From: Leptonemataceae bacterium
GTDB lineage: Bacteria > Spirochaetota > Leptospiria > Leptospirales > Leptonemataceae
Direction of reading: 5' to 3'
Length of the DNA stretch: 64,000 bases
Assembly: GCA_965227295.1 (NCBI GenBank)
Contig: OZ245742.1
Location: 2,976,001-3,040,000, forward strand
The notes below the pieces were generated by a model. That model ran no database searches and was not told the DNA's origin. It was given only the letters and a program-made list of their open reading frames with translations. Of the stretch, positions 12,254-25,930 are shown in pieces. Position numbers and translations under genes: made by a program. Numbering within the stretch: position 1 is the stretch's first letter; each line of letters starts with the position of its first letter.

Positions 12254-13216
12254 CACAATTCCGCAACTTACTTCATGTTTCTCACGGCAACGCAACGAAC
12301 CGCAACTCTTGAACTACCGGAAACGCGCGGGTAGTTCGCACACGCCCCGATTCGTGGTGTAAGTAGCGGCCAGTGTACATTAAGGCTTTTATGGGTACGG
12401 CTGGTTCCAGCTGACGAGCGGAGGTCATGCCGGGGATTTTGGTAAGGCGCACCGGAACGGCGTCTTCGCCGTGAGGAACGCTGCGGGAGCTGAGTCACAA
12501 ACCAGCGTCCGGGTCGAGGCGGACTATCTTAACAAAACGACATACCACAACTCCCGCTCAGCCGTAGCCATAAAGATCCCTTCACAATTCCGCAACTTAC
12601 TTCATGTTTCTCGCGGCAACGCAACGAACCGCAACTCTTGAACTACCGGAAACGCGCGGGTAGTTCGCACACGCCCCGAATCCTGGTGTAAGTAGCGGCC
12701 AGTGTACATTAAGGCTTTTATGGGTACGGCTGGTTCCAGCTAACGAGCGGAGGTCATGCCGGGGATTTTGGTAAGGCGCACCGGAACGGCGTCTTCGCCG
12801 TGAGGAACGCTGCGGGAGCTGAGTCTCACAACCAGCGTCCGGGTCGAGGCGGACTATCTTAACAAAACGACATACCACAACTCCCGCTCAGCTGTAGCCA
12901 TCAAAACCCCTTCACAATTCCGCAACTTACTTCATATTTTTTGCGGCAAAGGCAACGAAACGCGGCTCTTGAACTACCGGAAATGTTTCCTTCGTTCGAG
13001 CACGCTCCGAATCGTGGTGTAAGTAGCGGCCAGTGTACATTAAGGCTTTTATGGGTACGGCTGGTTCCAGCTAACGAGCGGAGGTCATGCCGGGGATTTT
13101 GGTAAGGCGCACCGGAACGGCGTCTTCGCCGTGAGGAACGCTGCGGGAGCTGAGTCACAAACCAGCGTCCGGGTCGAGTCGGACTATCTTAACAAAACGA
13201 CATACCACAACTCCCG
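12254..13216 (+). repeat. Tandem array 2 of the ~330-bp repeat (partial unit, units at 12492 and 12821, and a unit at 13152 cut at 13216)
   Basis: Same conserved blocks; near-identical units at 329-331 bp period. Confidence 0.95.
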
Positions 13217-13231
13217 TTGTGTAAAGAGAAG
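13206..13231. other. Left attachment site (attL): core CACAACTCCCG followed by terminal inverted repeat TTGTGTAAAGAGAAG
   Basis: 11-bp direct repeat of 25920-25930; 13217-13231 is the inverted complement of 25911-25925 region (14/15 match). Confidence 0.85.
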
Positions 13232-13305
13232 TAAATATAGTAAGTGGAAAAAGCGTGCGTTTTTGGCTTGCCGGTTTCGGTGGCGCGTATATGTCCGCTT
13301 GCTGT

Positions 13306-14298
13306 ATGGAGAAATCAAAAATTGCTAACATTGGTGCCGCGCGACTTAGTGGTCACAGTGTTACCGTTTCCAATTCGGGCTATACGGATTTTACACCGTT
13401 GCTCGGTGAGATCCGTTTTGACGCCCTGCCGGAAATCGCCGGTGCCTGGGATAATGCTAACCGGCACGTCGCCAAACTTAACGCCCGGCACCCGGCGGGC
13501 TTCGGGCTGCTCGAAATTGACGCCTATTTGACCGAATACGCGCACGGGCGCGAGAATGCCACGGTTAAGAACCTCGGTTACGGCCTGCGTAACTCGGTGA
13601 TTCAGGCAATGGGCCTGGACTATCGTTTACACCATGGTAAACGAACCGTCGTGGACGAAACTTTTCGTCCTTATGTCACGCTGAAACCGCGCAAGGCCCG
13701 GCGACCGGTGCCGTCGCCGCGCGAAATCATGCGCGTCTTTGTGAGCGCCCGGCCGCGCGTCGCCTCCGTCGTGGAGATTCTGTTTCAAACGGGGCTGCGC
13801 ATCTCGGAACTCTGCAATCTGAAGATTTCCGACTTTGACCCGCAACCGACCGAGGACGGCACCGGCGTCGTCTTCCGCGTCAAGAACAAGGGCGGCGACA
13901 TCAAAGTCGTCAAGATGCGTCTGGCCACCTTCGAACGCGCCGTGAAGGCTTTTTACGGCTGTGTCTATCTGATCGAAAGCCGTCCCGGTAAGAAGTACTC
14001 GCGCCAGGGCCTGGCCGACCTGGTCAAGTGCGGCACGCGGCGCGTGCTCGGTCGCGCCTATCCCCCGCACAGTCTCCGGCACGCTCACGCCGATTACATG
14101 ATGGCGAACCATCCCGGTAAGCTTAAGGGCATCCTGGACAACGGGGGCTGGGCCAACGCGGAAGTGTTTATCAGCACTTACAATCATGTGCAATTGAACG
14201 TCGCGGATCTGCCGTCCCTGGACGATATGGCGGAGACGATGAACGCGCAGGCACAACCGCAGAAAACGCGGCGCGGGGACGGGCGACGCAAAGTCTAA
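13306..14298 (+). CDS. Tyrosine recombinase/integrase (XerC/D-like catalytic domain)
   Basis: TGLRISEL (R), KNKGG (K), HSLRHA (HxxR), GGW (H/W position) and STYNH (Y); ATG at 13306 preferred because the longer start overlaps the end repeats. Confidence 0.9.
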   Translation: MEKSKIANIGAARLSGHSVTVSNSGYTDFTPLLGEIRFDALPEIAGAWDNANRHVAKLNARHPAGFGLLEIDAYLTEYAHGRENATVKNLGYGLRNSVIQAMGLDYRLHHGKRTVVDETFRPYVTLKPRKARRPVPSPREIMRVFVSARPRVASVVEILFQTGLRISELCNLKISDFDPQPTEDGTGVVFRVKNKGGDIKVVKMRLATFERAVKAFYGCVYLIESRPGKKYSRQGLADLVKCGTRRVLGRAYPPHSLRHAHADYMMANHPGKLKGILDNGGWANAEVFISTYNHVQLNVADLPSLDDMAETMNAQAQPQKTRRGDGRRKV

Positions 14299-14322
14299 GT
14301 TTGTACGCGTAGAGGTTAAATC

Positions 14323-15096
14323 ATGCTGACTTTTTCCGTGAAACAGTTTCAGAAAGAAGCCGCGCGCATTCGCGAAGAATACGGCGGGGATGCGCGCTTT
14401 CGTCTGAAGATTCACCGCGCCGGTATGGAATCGGTGGAACTGCATTCGACCGATCTGCCGGAACTCGAACCGGGCGAATACACCGTCGAACTCGCGGCGA
14501 AAGCGCCCGGTGAAAAGGAATGGACGCGGGTATTTTCCGGCAAGATTCACCGGCCGTTACACGGAAACAGTAGTGCCGCGCGTAACACGCTCAAACATTC
14601 CGACGGGGGCGCCGTGAACGGCGGCGCCTCCGCGGGCAACGGTGCCGCGGAAAGCCTTGTTCTCGATCGCGCGTTTGCGTATCTCGAAAAGATCGAAGGC
14701 AAATTCGACGAAGCACAGCGCATCCGGGACAGCGCGGCGACGGCGTCTCTTGATATGACGATTCAATCGCTCAAAGGCGCGTTTTCCGCGGCCCTGGACG
14801 AAATTGTCCGCGCCCAGGATCGTTCTGTCGATCGGCTGCGCACCGAACTGGACGACACGATTAAGAGTTACGAACGCCGCTTCGAGAAACTCCAGGAAGA
14901 GCACGAAGACGACCGGCGTCGCTGGCAGGAGAAAAGCGCGGCGGACAACACGACGCCCGGCGAGCGGATGCTGGAACGCGGTATCCAGTTAGGCGAGAAG
15001 ATCTTAAGCAACCTTGATAAAATCAAAATGCTGACCGGCCAGGGTGTACCGCCCACCGCGGCGGCGTCCGGCCCGGCCAGAAGGGGACCAGTTTAA
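14323..15096 (+). CDS. Hypothetical protein with C-terminal coiled-coil
   Basis: 257-aa ORF with GAGG RBS, co-oriented with the integrase; charged helical C-terminal half. Confidence 0.7.
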   Translation: MLTFSVKQFQKEAARIREEYGGDARFRLKIHRAGMESVELHSTDLPELEPGEYTVELAAKAPGEKEWTRVFSGKIHRPLHGNSSAARNTLKHSDGGAVNGGASAGNGAAESLVLDRAFAYLEKIEGKFDEAQRIRDSAATASLDMTIQSLKGAFSAALDEIVRAQDRSVDRLRTELDDTIKSYERRFEKLQEEHEDDRRRWQEKSAADNTTPGERMLERGIQLGEKILSNLDKIKMLTGQGVPPTAAASGPARRGPV

Positions 15097-24556: not shown

Positions 24557-24648
24557 GCTCCGTCCTCAGTAGAGAGCAATTTTCTTGACCTTTTCTCCGT
24601 ATCGGATCGTCTGTCCTCTATGAAGAGCACTTCAAAGGAGGTCCGCAA

Positions 24649-25020
24649 ATGCGCGGGGACATATCGATCAACAACCAAACCGTCCACGGCGTCCGCTTGC
24701 TGACGTACAATGAGGAACCGGTCATCGGTATCCTGTACGGCACGGTCGGAATCGTCGTGGAAATCCACACGGGGCAGGTGAACGAGGACGGCCCGGAGCC
24801 GCTCGCGATACTGCTCAGTGCGGGCATACGAGTCGTAGAGGATTATTTCCTCATCCGGGGCTACCAGCGAACGGGGCGCGACCGATACGACCAGGACCGG
24901 TATTTCAAGCCGGGCCAGGCGCACGAATCGGCCGTCGTCCGGTTCTACCCGTACGGCACGGAAGACACAAAACGCTGGCTGGAACGAATCCAGCGGGGAG
25001 GTACCGATGATACGCGGTAA
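24649..25020 (+). CDS. Hypothetical protein, paralog 1 of a tandem triplet
   Basis: AAGGAGG RBS; shares MRG...YNE...RG(Y/F).R(S/T)G.D...H.S.V..F.P.G with the next two genes. Confidence 0.8.
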   Translation: MRGDISINNQTVHGVRLLTYNEEPVIGILYGTVGIVVEIHTGQVNEDGPEPLAILLSAGIRVVEDYFLIRGYQRTGRDRYDQDRYFKPGQAHESAVVRFYPYGTEDTKRWLERIQRGGTDDTR

Positions 25021-25345
25021 GATGCGTCTGGAAGATCGCACGGAGCAAGTCTATCTGTGCATGTACAGTGAGGCACCGAACGAGTACACGTCGTACGTCG
25101 CACACGATACGGTTGCCGAATTTCTGAGGAGGGACGGCAAAAATTTGGCGCCGGTTACACTGTTATTCGGCGCCTCGTTGCGGGTGTATGATCGGGAGAT
25201 GATCATCCGGGGCTTTCGCCGGAGCGGTCTGGACCGAAAGGATTACACCAATCACCTCAAGCCGGACCAGGAGCATCAAAGTGTGATTGTGCACTTTGTC
25301 CCGGACGGTGCGGACGAAACGGAGGACGAAGACGATGCGCGGTGA
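25007..25345 (+). CDS. Hypothetical protein, paralog 2 of a tandem triplet
   Basis: GGAGG RBS; overlaps paralog 1; IRGFRRSGLD...HQSVIVHFVPDG. Confidence 0.75.
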   Translation: MIRGKMRLEDRTEQVYLCMYSEAPNEYTSYVAHDTVAEFLRRDGKNLAPVTLLFGASLRVYDREMIIRGFRRSGLDRKDYTNHLKPDQEHQSVIVHFVPDGADETEDEDDAR

Positions 25346-25706
25346 CATGCTCATCAATGGTCGCCGATACGCGGGCGTCTACCTGCTGCTGTATAACGAG
25401 CAAACGGGGATCCAGGGCGACGTCGGGTCCATCGGAGCGGTAGCGGAAATCCACATACGCCGCGGCACGGATGATTACTATCCGGTGGCGGTGTTGATCG
25501 CCGCACAGGCGCGTGTGGTCAACGGTTGCCTGACCCTGCGGGGCTTCTTTCGCTCCGGCCAGGACCAGGAAGACGGAAGCCTCTGTCTACTGGCGAACCA
25601 GACGCACCGGTCAGCGGTGATCGAGTTTACCCCGTACGGCCCGGACGACCAGGACGAACGGGAACCGCACATGCACCAGTTGAAGCAGGAGGACGACACA
25701 GAATAG
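25335..25706 (+). CDS. Hypothetical protein, paralog 3 of a tandem triplet
   Basis: MRGDMLING...YNE...LRGFFRSGQD...HRSAVIEFTPYG; start set by homology to paralog 1. Confidence 0.8.
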   Translation: MRGDMLINGRRYAGVYLLLYNEQTGIQGDVGSIGAVAEIHIRRGTDDYYPVAVLIAAQARVVNGCLTLRGFFRSGQDQEDGSLCLLANQTHRSAVIEFTPYGPDDQDEREPHMHQLKQEDDTE

Positions 25707-25909
25707 TGCTTGTGTGCATCGGGTGAATACGTAAGATACTACCCGAAACCAAAAATTTTATTGGAGGATGGACACAACGCGCCACCGAAACGACAGGCAA
25801 ATCGGATTTCGATAAGAATCAGACTTGCAACCGGCCCCGGCCGATGTAAGATACTGACCAACGGAATCTAAAAAAAGCACTCTTAACGATCTTACCGCCG
25901 AAATGGCAC

Positions 25910-25930
25910 CTTTTCTTTACACAACTCCCG
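25910..25930. other. Right attachment site (attR): CTTTTCTTTACACAA followed by CTCCCG
   Basis: Inverted copy of the left end plus the duplicated core; the repeat unit continues (CTCAGCCGTAGCCATAAAGATCCC) as in the intact unit at 12557. Confidence 0.85.

What the first reader, a model, noticed from the sequence alone, without database searches (positions are those of the whole stretch)
13206..25930. Tyrosine-recombinase element that targets a multicopy chromosomal tandem repeat and delivers a polymorphic toxin locus
Seen: the repeat unit starting at 13152 stops at CATACCACAACTCCCG (13216) and resumes 12.7 kb later as CTCCCGCTCAGCCGTAGCCATAAAGATCCC, as in the intact unit at 12541. The insert starts with a tyrosine recombinase with a full R-K-H-R-W-Y set and carries a Hint-toxin/immunity pair, regulators and unknown genes. 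I see no relaxase, conjugation, replication or capsid genes. Known: tyrosine integrases usually use single-copy targets such as tRNA genes or dif. Inference: this is a compact integrative element whose attB is a motif inside a repeat family, giving it many neutral intergenic landing sites.
Basis: partly seen in the sequence, partly recalled or inferred. Interest (0 to 1): 0.92.

Follow-up and report, generated by a model that had tools for sequence, protein, structure and literature searches.

The report
Integrase island inserted in an intergenic repeat
A 12.7-kb mobile island carrying its own Xer-like integrase and a large toxin gene sits precisely inside one copy of a repeated, non-coding 330-bp unit, which is an unusual but not unprecedented choice of landing site.

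Summary
One unit of a ~330-bp intergenic repeat is cut after CCACAACTCCCG (13216) and resumes at 25925/25931. The 12,714-bp insert has an 11-bp direct repeat, CACAACTCCCG, at 13206-13216 and 25920-25930. Its 15-bp terminal inverted repeats match 14 of 15. The right repeat overlaps the direct repeat by 5 bp, so the two arms flank a 6-bp spacer, CTCCCG. That is the layout of a simple Xer/Cre-type recombination site.

The adjacent gene (13291-14298) encodes a two-domain tyrosine recombinase with invariant R-K-H-R-W-Y. It belongs to a rare subfamily. An intact copy of the target at 12545 is identical to the rebuilt empty site from -37 to +49, and four more near-copies lie in the window. At least one further repeat array lies elsewhere in the 5.94-Mb contig.

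The neighbouring backbone gene has an 86% relative on an 11.7-kb metagenome contig and a 51% paralogue elsewhere in the same genome. Cargo is a 1843-aa PT-HINT polymorphic toxin plus regulators. I found no transfer, replication or capsid genes.

Use of more than one repeat copy, excision and neutrality are not shown, because no relative's DNA could be fetched. Elements that target multicopy repeats or short motifs are already known (TnPZ/XerT, Neisseria Nf prophages). Verdict: a real island with a moderately unusual target.

The parts
8748..10660 (+). Repeat array 1: about 5 units of the ~330-bp repeat, between a glycosidase-like gene (ends 8750) and the 3' end of a minus-strand MFS efflux gene. 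It holds intact attB-like sites at 8821, 9540 and 9935.
12235..13216 (+). Repeat array 2, left part (units U6, U7, U8-left). It holds intact attB-like sites at 12545-12562 and 12875-12892.
13196..13231 (+). attL: host arm ending in CACAA, then the 6-bp overlap CTCCCG (13211-13216), then the element arm TTGTGTAAAGAGAAG (13217-13231). The left copy of the 11-bp direct repeat is 13206-13216.
13291..14298 (+). Tyrosine recombinase (335 aa from ATG 13291; a GTG at 13255 is an alternative start). Simple two-domain Xer/Cre-like enzyme with R170, K200, H260, R263, W287, Y297.
   Evidence: PF00589 E 2e-13. PDB XerA 4a8e E 1.1e-6. Invariant residues. AF2 model pLDDT 82.8, best folds XerA, Cre and XerH.
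14323..15096 (+). ORF2, 257 aa, coiled-coil, no known family. Conserved backbone gene of this element type.
   Evidence: 86% relative on an 11,678-bp contig and a 51% paralogue elsewhere in the same 5.94-Mb contig. No family found; Atlas scores below 0.9.
15096..15437 (+). ORF3, 113 aa, unknown. Its start overlaps the ORF2 stop.
15456..15719 (+). ORF4, 87 aa, unknown. A role as a DNA-binding or excision helper is only a guess.
   Evidence: no family
15854..16462 (+). 202-aa protein with a hydrophobic N-terminus (read by eye), unknown function.
16497..17039 (-). LuxR/GerE-type HTH regulator, 180 aa.
   Evidence: PF00196 E 4e-9
17199..22730 (+). 1843-aa polymorphic toxin: TIGR04388 N-terminal region, glycine-rich middle, PT-HINT (residues 1453-1573), and a ~270-aa C-terminal domain of unknown family.
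   Evidence: TIGR04388 E 6.2e-108. PF07591 E 2.7e-16. C-terminus: no Pfam or PDB match; Atlas lead to M91-like peptidases at 0.92; fold model unusable, pLDDT 42.
22727..23155 (+). 142-aa ORF whose start overlaps the toxin stop, with a hydrophobic N-terminus. Putative immunity protein, from position only.
   Evidence: Local GC drops to 0.49-0.52 at 21-23 kb.
23152..23996 (+). 54-aa ORF and a 224-aa ORF with hydrophobic stretches suggesting a membrane protein (read by eye), unknown function.
24071..24556 (+). Cro/CI-type HTH regulator. The HTH lies in residues 105-157, so the real start may be later.
   Evidence: PF01381 E 3.6e-5; PHROG repressor families
24649..25706 (+). Three tandem paralogous ORFs of 107-123 aa, 34-39% identical, no known family.
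25707..25909 (+). Non-coding right end with two exact copies of GTAAGATACT (25731 and 25846). Possibly accessory-protein sites or promoter elements.
   Evidence: 6 matches with <=1 mismatch against 0.64 expected
25910..25945 (+). attR: element arm CTTTTCTTTACACAA (25910-25924), then overlap CTCCCG (25925-25930), then the host arm CTCAGCCGTAGCC... The right copy of the 11-bp direct repeat is 25920-25930.
25931..26077 (+). Repeat array 2, right part. This is the rest of unit U8 (the hairpin or 'promoter' module), ending just upstream of the SEC-C-motif gene at 26214-26942.
28331..29337 (+). Repeat array 3: two 497-bp units with extra hairpin modules, between fliY (27184-28260) and a fliO-like gene (29463-30434). 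Its att-like sites are degenerate (CACAACTCCGAAGAGCC).

Best explanation
This is a 12.7-kb site-specific integrative island. Its own Xer/Cre-like tyrosine recombinase joined a circular form of the element to a chromosomal attB that lies inside a ~330-bp intergenic repeat unit.

Proposed mechanism:
- In the circular form the two ends abut, giving a simple recombination site. Two 15-bp inverted recombinase-binding arms flank the 6-bp overlap CTCCCG, where the strands are exchanged.
- The host site shares the overlap and 5 bp of the left arm (CACAA). That explains the 11-bp direct repeat after integration.
- The same attB sequence recurs in neighbouring units and in other arrays, so the element has several equivalent landing sites in one genome.
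- The island has a conserved backbone (int plus ORF2; ORF3 and ORF4 follow directly in this copy, but their conservation was not tested).
- Cargo is a PT-HINT polymorphic toxin with a presumed immunity gene, two HTH regulators and genes of unknown function.
- It has no recognisable transfer or packaging genes, so movement between cells would need a helper or transformation.

Shown: the junction anatomy, the recombinase family and catalytic residues, multiple identical attB copies, and backbone relatives elsewhere.

Inferred: the circular intermediate, the 6-bp overlap, actual use of other copies, and excision.
For: 1. Precise interruption of one repeat unit, with an 11-bp direct repeat and 14-of-15 terminal inverted repeats.
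2. The right inverted repeat overlaps the direct repeat by exactly 5 bp, so the arms flank a 6-bp spacer. This fits a recombinase core site and does not fit a target-site duplication (read).
3. The recombinase gene starts 60 bp inside attL.
4. It matches PF00589. R-K-H-R-W-Y is invariant in 13 of 13 aligned relatives.
5. The AF2 model has pLDDT 82.8. Residues 35-129 form a helical domain and 143-320 a catalytic domain, and the first 31 residues are disordered. The best structural matches are XerA, Cre and XerH at E about 1e-7.
6. Island GC is 0.568 against 0.602 for the rest of the window.
7. The intact site at 12545 is identical to the rebuilt empty site from -37 to +49. The window holds 6 matches to the 18-nt attB pattern at <=3 mismatches against 0.06 expected; one is the occupied site's right junction, and the other five are intact sites with at most 2 mismatches.
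8. A spurious 184-aa ORF (P0165), annotated elsewhere in the same 5,938,550-bp contig, translates another array. Reading that protein against the corresponding window ORF, it includes an intact att motif. It is at most 72% identical to anything in the window.
It also has a 51% paralogue elsewhere in the same genome. This points to a family of such elements.
Against: - Only one insertion is visible. No excised circle, no orthologous empty site and no second insertion could be examined.
- The host right arm (CTCAGCCGTAG) matches the element arm at only 2 of 11 positions (my count), so attB is a poor palindrome.
- No excisionase or directionality factor was identified.
- No relative's DNA could be fetched. 
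- The integrase on the related contig is only 50% identical while ORF2 is 86% identical, so relatives may use a different target.
- Integrase search listed no second hit from the 5.94-Mb contig, so the second ORF2-bearing element may carry a distant integrase or none.
Confidence: 0.75

Rival explanations
1. The island did integrate by its recombinase, but hitting a repeat unit was incidental. The element is site-specific for a roughly 20-40-bp sequence that happens to be repeated, or it is now an immobile fossil. There is no adaptive 'multicopy target' strategy.
For: - Only one insertion is seen.
- All repeat copies in the window lie within 8.7-29.3 kb, with none in 30-64 kb, so the family may be small.
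- Array 3 has degenerate att-like sites.
- No directionality factor or transfer genes were found.
- The close ORF2 relative is paired with a much more diverged integrase.
Against: - The direct repeat is perfect, the arms match 14 of 15, and the split halves of the unit are still 90-93% identical to sister units. The insertion therefore looks recent.
- Several exact attB copies exist.
- The recombinase keeps all catalytic residues.
Confidence: 0.17
2. It is a transposon moved by a non-tyrosine mechanism. In that reading the 15-bp ends are transposase terminal inverted repeats and the 11-bp repeat is a target-site duplication.
For: Terminal inverted repeats plus a flanking direct repeat are also the hallmark of DDE transposons.
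Against: - No transposase family was found in any of 15 ORFs.
- The right inverted repeat runs 5 bp into the direct repeat, which a duplication model leaves to chance at about 1 in 1000 (inference).
- An intact tyrosine recombinase sits next to the end.
Confidence: 0.03
3. It is an assembly artefact: a contig joined wrongly at a repeated sequence.
For: Repeats of 330-500 bp in several arrays can mislead short-read assemblers.
Against: - The break is not at an arbitrary place in the repeat. It falls at an 11-bp repeat with matching inverted arms next to an integrase.
- The element's ends are unique in the window.
- The source contig is 5.94 Mb long.
Confidence: 0.02
4. The recombinase is mainly a resident enzyme that acts on the repeat arrays themselves, changing unit number or deleting between direct att sites, and is not the integrase of a mobile element.
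For: - Many directly repeated att-like sites lie near the gene.
- Arrays differ in unit number.
- A 60-bp insert sits exactly at the arm/overlap boundary in two other units.
Against: - The gene lies inside a 12.7-kb segment of lower GC with its own inverted arms that are not part of the repeat.
- Arrays 1 and 3 have no recombinase.
- Array ends do not coincide with att sites.
Confidence: 0.03

Closest known systems
Helicobacter pylori TnPZ / ICEHptfs elements with XerT (PMC2731543, passages read; PMC4234485, search listing only)
   Same: Both have a Xer-type tyrosine recombinase encoded by the element, imperfect terminal inverted repeats (13-14 bp there, 15 bp here), a short flanking direct repeat that is single-copy at empty sites, and many possible chromosomal sites.
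   Different: TnPZs are 40-55 kb and carry a type IV secretion system. Their target is a 7-bp motif scattered through genes. This island is 12.7 kb with no transfer genes. Its shared core is 11 bp, set inside a long repeat unit, so its specificity is probably much higher.
Neisseria Nf1-4 filamentous prophages that target dRS3 repeats (PMC7058167, passages read)
   Same: A mobile element whose target is a multicopy intergenic repeat, giving variable integration loci.
   Different: Those are filamentous phages. From recall, their enzyme is a Piv/IS110-type transposase, not a tyrosine recombinase. dRS3 is a 20-bp repeat with hundreds of copies, not a 330-bp tandem unit.
Xer/Cre-type simple tyrosine recombinases (XerA 4a8e/5hxy, XerH 5jjv, Cre 1crx)
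   Same: Two-domain fold without an arm-binding domain, the catalytic R-K-H-R-(H/W)-Y set, and a core site of inverted arms around a 6-8-bp spacer (site layout).
   Different: Sequence identity is only 13-22%. The enzyme sits at the edge of an insertion, not at a chromosomal dif, and its attB has only one good half-site.
tRNA/tmRNA-targeting genomic islands and tycheposons (bioRxiv 10.1101/2020.12.28.424599, abstract start seen)
   Same: A compact cargo-carrying island with a tyrosine recombinase at one end, inserted next to a structured, conserved non-coding gene-like sequence that can exist in several copies.
   Different: The target here is not a tRNA and matches no Rfam family. Only 11 bp are shared, so the element does not rebuild a long 3' part of the target.
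Polymorphic toxin systems with a PT-HINT releasing domain (Zhang et al. 2012, PMC3482391, abstract start seen)
   Same: A long N-terminal region, a PT-HINT domain, a variable C-terminal domain, a small downstream ORF, and lower GC at the 3' cassette.
   Different: The C-terminal domain matches no Pfam family. Immunity is not shown, and the export route is unknown.

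Membership tests
Tyrosine recombinase superfamily (PF00589) | Catalytic domain recognised by the family profile | tested here: met
   PF00589 E 2e-13, 50.9 bits against a cutoff of 27.1; phrog_1 integrase E 4e-17
Tyrosine recombinase superfamily (PF00589) | Catalytic R-K-H-R-(H/W)-Y residues | tested here: met
   R170, K200, H260, R263, W287 and Y297 are invariant in 13 of 13 aligned members
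Simple (Xer/Cre-like) tyrosine recombinases | Two-domain fold with no N-terminal arm-binding domain | tested here: met
   AF2 model pLDDT 82.8. Residues 1-31 are disordered, 35-129 form a helical domain and 143-320 a catalytic domain. Top folds are XerA, Cre and XerH, E 3e-8 to 2e-7.
Simple (Xer/Cre-like) tyrosine recombinases | Core site of two inverted binding arms around a 6-8-bp overlap | tested here: met
   The right end reads CTTTTCTTTACACAA then CTCCCG. The left end reads CTCCCG then TTGTGTAAAGAGAAG. Arms are 14 of 15 complementary. The cleavage positions themselves were not tested.
Chromosomal XerC/D-dif dimer resolution | Single chromosomal dif site near the terminus, FtsK dependence, housekeeping gene context | not tested
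   The gene lies inside a bounded 12.7-kb insert of lower GC, which argues against a housekeeping role. dif and FtsK dependence cannot be examined from this window.
Site-specific integrative island | Direct repeats (att core) at both ends with the integrase next to one end | tested here: met
   11-bp repeat at 13206-13216 and 25920-25930; int starts at 13291
Site-specific integrative island | Empty site and an excised circular form | tested here: inconclusive
   Paralogous intact sites exist; 12545 is identical from -37 to +49.
ICE / IME (conjugative or mobilisable element) | Relaxase, oriT, coupling protein or type IV secretion genes | tested here: not met
   None found in 15 ORFs against Pfam, NCBIfam and PHROGs
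Prophage or phage satellite | Capsid, portal, terminase, tail or replication genes | tested here: not met
   PHROGs matched only the integrase and the two HTH regulators. No DNA match in 50,697 phage records for the integrase beyond 22-27% identity.
Integron | IntI-type integrase reaching the family cutoff; attI plus attC-bounded cassettes | tested here: not met
   TIGR02249 25.9 bits against a cutoff of 265. The repeat units carry no conserved ORF, and array ends do not fall at att sites.
DDE or other transposon | A transposase gene, with terminal repeats strictly inside the duplication | tested here: not met
   No transposase family found. The right inverted repeat overlaps the direct repeat by 5 bp.
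Polymorphic toxin system | PT-HINT or similar releasing domain followed by a C-terminal toxin domain | tested here: inconclusive
   PT-HINT is met (E 2.7e-16). The C-terminal 269 aa match no Pfam or PDB entry. Only an Atlas lead to M91-like peptidases at 0.92. The fold model has pLDDT 42.
Polymorphic toxin system | Cognate immunity gene immediately downstream | not testable with these tools
   A 142-aa ORF overlaps the toxin stop, but it has no known family. Binding was not tested.
Known non-coding RNA family (Rfam) for the repeat unit | A match to a covariance model | tested here: not met
   0 matches at gathering score over the whole window. Only 2 chance-level hits at E <= 1 in 8600-13300. 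No tRNA or tmRNA.

The most novel reading that the evidence does not exclude
The ~330-bp unit may be a gene for a new multicopy structured RNA, with a promoter module plus a long hairpin, arranged in tandem arrays. A small family of Xer-like islands (int plus ORF2 backbone) would then specialise in its 3' boundary, much as other islands specialise in tRNA genes. This would give them many equivalent sites per genome and place int under read-through from the host unit. The identical 60-bp hairpin insert found at exactly the arm/overlap boundary in two other units would be a trace of repeated recombinase activity at the same phosphodiester bond.
Probability: 0.2. Interest if true: 0.7.

Novelty: new variant of a known kind. 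Interest (0 to 1): 0.42.

Why it matters
- If the recombinase really uses any copy of the unit, this is a compact natural example of a simple, accessory-light integrase with a well-defined palindromic site and several chromosomal landing pads.
- That is of interest for how islands avoid disrupting genes, for how repeat arrays are reshaped, and as a possible genome-engineering enzyme.
- It also shows a polymorphic toxin locus moving as the cargo of a minimal island.
- The target repeat is itself uncharacterised. It is conserved, strongly self-complementary, tandem, and even present inside a flagellar gene cluster, so it deserves a transcript map.
- None of this overturns current ideas, because repeat-targeting and motif-targeting elements are already known.

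Tried and rejected
1. Genome-contig scan with a 19-base pattern taken from the unit just left of the att site. It returned 34 loci in unrelated taxa. nhmmer with three units found nothing better than E 4.8 (0 of 34).

2. Rfam at gathering score and at E <= 1, plus a tRNA/tmRNA scan: nothing.

3. RNA structure of the unit.
- RNAalifold on both strands gave similar energies (-40.0 and -39.0 kcal/mol) and little covariation.
- A single unit folded with z -1.3 on the plus strand and -2.7 on the minus strand.
- The module after the att site forms a long hairpin: 48 pairs, 90.3% of 383 cells paired, against 34-43% when partners are slid. Covariation is not above shuffles (113 of 500 reach the observed score).
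- The strand test gave 346 cells paired on plus and 315 on minus, out of 383. It is biased, because the structure was derived on the plus strand.
- So I could not decide between RNA and a DNA-level palindrome, nor settle the strand.

4. Coding potential of the units: ORFs exist on both strands, but frames differ between units and the products are arginine-rich junk. Rejected.

5. Integron reading: rejected.

6. Plasmid and phage collections. No DNA match for the unit or the island in the plasmid collection. The integrase has only 22-28% identical relatives in plasmids and phages.

8. ORF2 in the ESM Atlas: best score 0.88, not usable.

9. Toxin C-terminus: Pfam at E <= 5 and PDB by sequence gave nothing. 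The single-sequence AF2 model has pLDDT 42, so no fold search was run.

10. PADLOC: no defence system in the island.

11. The sigma-70 promoter scan found no consistent promoter in the units. It found weak terminator-like hairpins across the att site on the minus strand, with stems rich in G-T pairs. I do not rely on them.

13. Supplementary files of papers were not consulted.

Full report
**What is in the sequence**

Between 8.7 and 29.3 kb the window holds three tandem arrays of a non-coding unit of about 330 bp.
- Array 1 runs 8748-10660 and has about five units.
- Array 2 runs 12235-13216 and continues at 25931-26077.
- Array 3 runs 28331-29337 and has two 497-bp units with extra hairpin modules.
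- These come from Tandem Repeats Finder, the repeat finder, the alignment and an nhmmer profile of seven units.
- nhmmer gave 14 matches with E <= 9e-16, all in this interval, and only 5 weak matches at E 6e-4 to 0.5.
- All copies have the same orientation and all are intergenic.
- Array 3 lies between fliY (27184-28260) and a fliO-like gene (29463-30434).

The third unit of array 2 stops after ...ACATACCACAACTCCCG at 13216. At 25925 the sequence CTCCCGCTCAGCCGTAGCCATAAAGATCCC follows. That is the order seen in the intact junction at 12541-12585.

**Anatomy of the junctions**
- The 11 bases CACAACTCCCG occur at 13206-13216 and again at 25920-25930.
- Just inside the left copy the insert begins TTGTGTAAAGAGAAG (13217-13231).
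- On the minus strand at 25910-25924 it reads TTGTGTAAAGAAAAG, a 14-of-15 inverted repeat.
- With up to three mismatches this 15-mer has 4 matches in 64 kb against 0.55 expected. No shuffle of 100 reached 4. The only near-perfect partner lies exactly at the other junction.
- The right arm overlaps the direct repeat by five bases (CACAA), while the left arm starts right after it.
- Read as a recombination site, the right end is arm CTTTTCTTTACACAA followed by CTCCCG. The left end is CTCCCG followed by arm TTGTGTAAAGAGAAG.
- When the ends abut in a circle, two inverted 15-bp arms flank a 6-bp spacer.
- That is the layout of dif, loxP and other simple tyrosine-recombinase sites. It explains why the identity with the host is 6 + 5 = 11 bp.
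- A target-site duplication made by a transposase would not be expected to run into the terminal repeat.
- The host site shares the spacer and the inner part of the left arm. By my count, the left arm shares 7 of 11 positions and the right arm only 2 of 11.

**The recombinase**
- The ORF at 13255/13291-14298 matches PF00589 (E 2e-13) and PHROG integrases.
- Its closest relative, P0002 (50% identity), starts MSACCM. I therefore place the start at ATG 13291.
- A full HMMER search of 1.84 billion cluster representatives, using a two-sequence profile, found 2273 proteins at E <= 1e-3. Only 10 reached E <= 1e-30, so the subfamily is small.
- In an alignment of the window protein with 12 of these (P0002 and P0016-P0026), R170, K200, H260, R263, W287 and Y297 are invariant.
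- By sequence, the nearest solved structures are archaeal XerA proteins (4a8e at E 1.1e-6, 5hxy at E 7.3e-6).
- An AlphaFold2 model from that alignment has mean pLDDT 82.8. It shows a disordered first 31 residues, a helical domain at 35-129 and a catalytic domain at 143-320.
- Foldseek against the PDB puts XerA, Cre and XerH first, at E 3e-8 to 2e-7.
- There is no sign of an arm-binding domain, which agrees with the simple palindromic site.
- NCBIfam integron-integrase and XerC/D models are hit far below their cutoffs.

**Contents of the island (13217-25919)**
- After int come ORF2 (257 aa, coiled-coil), ORF3 (113 aa) and ORF4 (87 aa).
- Next are a 202-aa protein with a hydrophobic N-terminus and a LuxR-type regulator on the other strand.
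- The 1843-aa protein has an N-terminal region matching TIGR04388 (E 6.2e-108). It carries a PT-HINT domain at residues 1453-1573 (E 2.7e-16).
- A 142-aa ORF overlaps the toxin stop. It is followed by a 54-aa ORF, a 224-aa ORF with hydrophobic stretches suggesting a membrane protein (read by eye), and a Cro/CI-type HTH protein.
- Three tandem paralogues of 107-123 aa, 34-39% identical, close the coding part.
- Fifteen ORFs were scanned against Pfam, PHROGs, NCBIfam and PADLOC. No relaxase, secretion, replication, capsid, terminase, transposase or defence family appeared.
- The toxin's last 269 residues match nothing in Pfam or in the PDB by sequence.
- The ESM Atlas gives a lead to M91-type zinc peptidases: 18 of 30 hits, score 0.92. 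I treat this as a lead only.
- The single-sequence fold model was too poor to use (pLDDT 42).
- Island GC is 0.568 against 0.602 for the rest of the window. It falls to about 0.49-0.52 over the toxin 3' end and the next ORF, as expected for exchanged toxin cassettes.

**Is the target really multicopy?**
- Within the window the 18-nt string around the crossover, CCACAACTCCCGCTCAGC, has 6 matches at <=3 mismatches against 0.06 expected. One is the occupied site's right junction; five are intact sites (three exact, one with 1 mismatch, one with 2).
- The site at 12545 is identical to the rebuilt empty site from -37 to +49. Any attB of ordinary size is therefore present at least twice.
- To look beyond the window without DNA access, I searched the protein collection with a profile of the spurious ORFs that the units produce on the minus strand.
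- Among 8000 scored candidates one protein came back. P0165 is 184 aa and is annotated on the same 5,938,550-bp contig.
- It is at most 72% identical to any window translation, so it lies elsewhere.
- Reading that protein against the corresponding window ORF, it crosses an intact att motif.
- So at least a fourth array exists. The true copy number in the genome remains unknown.

**Is there a family of such elements?**
- ORF2 found three proteins among 3087 candidates.
- One is itself. One is P0167, 86% identical, on an 11,678-bp contig. One is P0168, 51% identical, on the same 5.94-Mb contig but outside the window.
- P0002, the 50%-identical integrase, also comes from a contig of 11,678 bp. 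int and ORF2 are therefore very probably neighbours there too.
- That contig is about the size of this island. It could be an assembled circle, or an island cut out by assembly breaks at flanking repeats. I could not check which.
- The contrast between 86% for ORF2 and 50% for int suggests that backbones and integrases are exchanged. Relatives need not share the target.
- One search showed no second integrase of this subfamily on the 5.94-Mb contig, but that search is limited by shared 5-mers.

**What the repeat unit is remains open**
- It has no Rfam match, no tRNA and no conserved ORF.
- The part that follows the att site folds into a long imperfect hairpin whose outer stem starts right after CTCCCG.
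- That hairpin has 48 pairs, with 90.3% of 383 cells paired, against 34-43% for slid partners. Covariation is not above shuffles.
- Alignment folds of the other half score alike on both strands.
- Units differ by whole hairpin modules.
- Two units (U1 and U4) carry an identical 60-bp insert at 9158-9216 and 10273-10331. It sits exactly between CCACAA and CTCCCG, the boundary between arm and overlap.
- That coincidence is suggestive of repeated breakage at this point, but I cannot explain it.
- The last, partial unit of array 2 ends about 135 bp upstream of the SEC-C-motif gene at 26214. This fits a promoter-bearing module, but the promoter scan gave nothing consistent.

**Comparison with known systems**
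- In mechanism, the island works like any site-specific integrative island with a simple tyrosine recombinase.
- The nearest described parallel is the TnPZ/ICEHptfs group of Helicobacter. These elements have imperfect terminal inverted repeats and a short direct repeat that is single-copy at empty sites. They use many insertion sites, and a Xer-type enzyme (XerT) is proposed as the agent (PMC2731543, passages read).
- Those elements are much larger, conjugative, and target a 7-bp motif.
- Targeting of a multicopy intergenic repeat is known for Neisseria Nf prophages and dRS3 (PMC7058167, passages read).
- From recall, multi-site use is also known for tRNA-gene families.
- Polymorphic toxins with PT-HINT are well described (PMC3482391, abstract start seen).
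- New here: a rare integrase subfamily, a clean 15-6-15 site, a target inside a long tandem unit of unknown function, and a minimal backbone without transfer genes.
- I did not find this repeat or this element in print, but my searches were by general terms only and cannot exclude it.

**Verdict**

- A site-specific integrative island at an attB inside a repeat: confidence about 0.75.
- That it really exploits several copies: likely but unproven.
- Interest is moderate (0.42).

**What stayed unchecked**
- The rest of the source genome.
- Any relative's DNA.
- Papers' supplementary files.

Noticed in passing
window 8748-10660, 12235-13216 + 25931-26077, 28331-29337: The ~330-bp repeat unit is itself uncharacterised. 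It is tandem, always in the same orientation and always intergenic. It is built from conserved blocks plus optional hairpin modules, has no Rfam match and no conserved ORF. The half after the att site forms a 48-pair hairpin. By nhmmer model coordinates (my arithmetic), arrays 1 and 3 hold close to whole numbers of units but in different registers: model positions 251 to 249, and 100 to 107.
   Followed up: partly
window 9158-9216 and 10273-10331: An identical 60-bp insert, made of a 10-bp palindrome plus a 12-bp-stem hairpin, sits in two units exactly between CCACAA and CTCCCG. This is the inferred arm/overlap boundary of the att site. Its hairpin tip TCTCGC-CGAA-GCGAGA is the reverse complement of a hairpin in another optional module (9787, 28477, 28974). 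It also occurs at 44880.
   Followed up: partly
window 27184-30434: Repeat array 3 (about 1 kb) lies inside a flagellar gene cluster, between fliY and a fliO-like gene on the same strand. Read-through of the array, or a promoter within it, would be needed if these genes are co-expressed.
   Followed up: no
window 24649-25706: Three tandem paralogous small ORFs (123, 107 and 123 aa; 34-39% identical) lie at the right end of the island. They have no match in Pfam, PHROGs, NCBIfam or PADLOC.
   Followed up: partly
window 14323-15096; proteins P0167, P0168: ORF2 is 86% identical to a protein on an 11,678-bp metagenome contig, whose integrase is only 50% identical. It also has a 51% paralogue elsewhere in the same genome. 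This suggests modular exchange between backbone and integrase, and a second related element in this genome.
   Followed up: partly
window 25731-25740 and 25846-25855: Two exact copies of GTAAGATACT lie in the non-coding right end of the island. A similar GTAAGT lies at the left end (13240) and at the conserved GTGTAAGT of every repeat unit. These may be a promoter element or a binding site.
   Followed up: no
window 10624-12180 (minus strand): An MFS efflux transporter is bracketed by arrays 1 and 2. Its best NCBIfam model is QepA (E 1e-149, 499.5 bits), far below that model's cutoff of 1075, so it is a DHA2-family relative rather than QepA itself. Its 3' end overlaps a large hairpin module that is part of the repeat family.
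   Followed up: no
window 279-6371: A 2030-aa protein combines an N-terminal Ser/Thr kinase domain with a C-terminal histidine-kinase/CheA-like ATPase region.
   Followed up: no
window 21921-22727: The toxin's C-terminal domain has no Pfam family. The Atlas points to M91-type zinc peptidases (score 0.92). I could not confirm a canonical zinc-binding motif or a fold.
   Followed up: partly
window 62738-63994 (minus strand): This ORF has a weak N-terminal match to the QatA anti-phage ATPase model (E 3.4e-12, 45.8 bits against a cutoff of 600) at the window edge.
   Followed up: no
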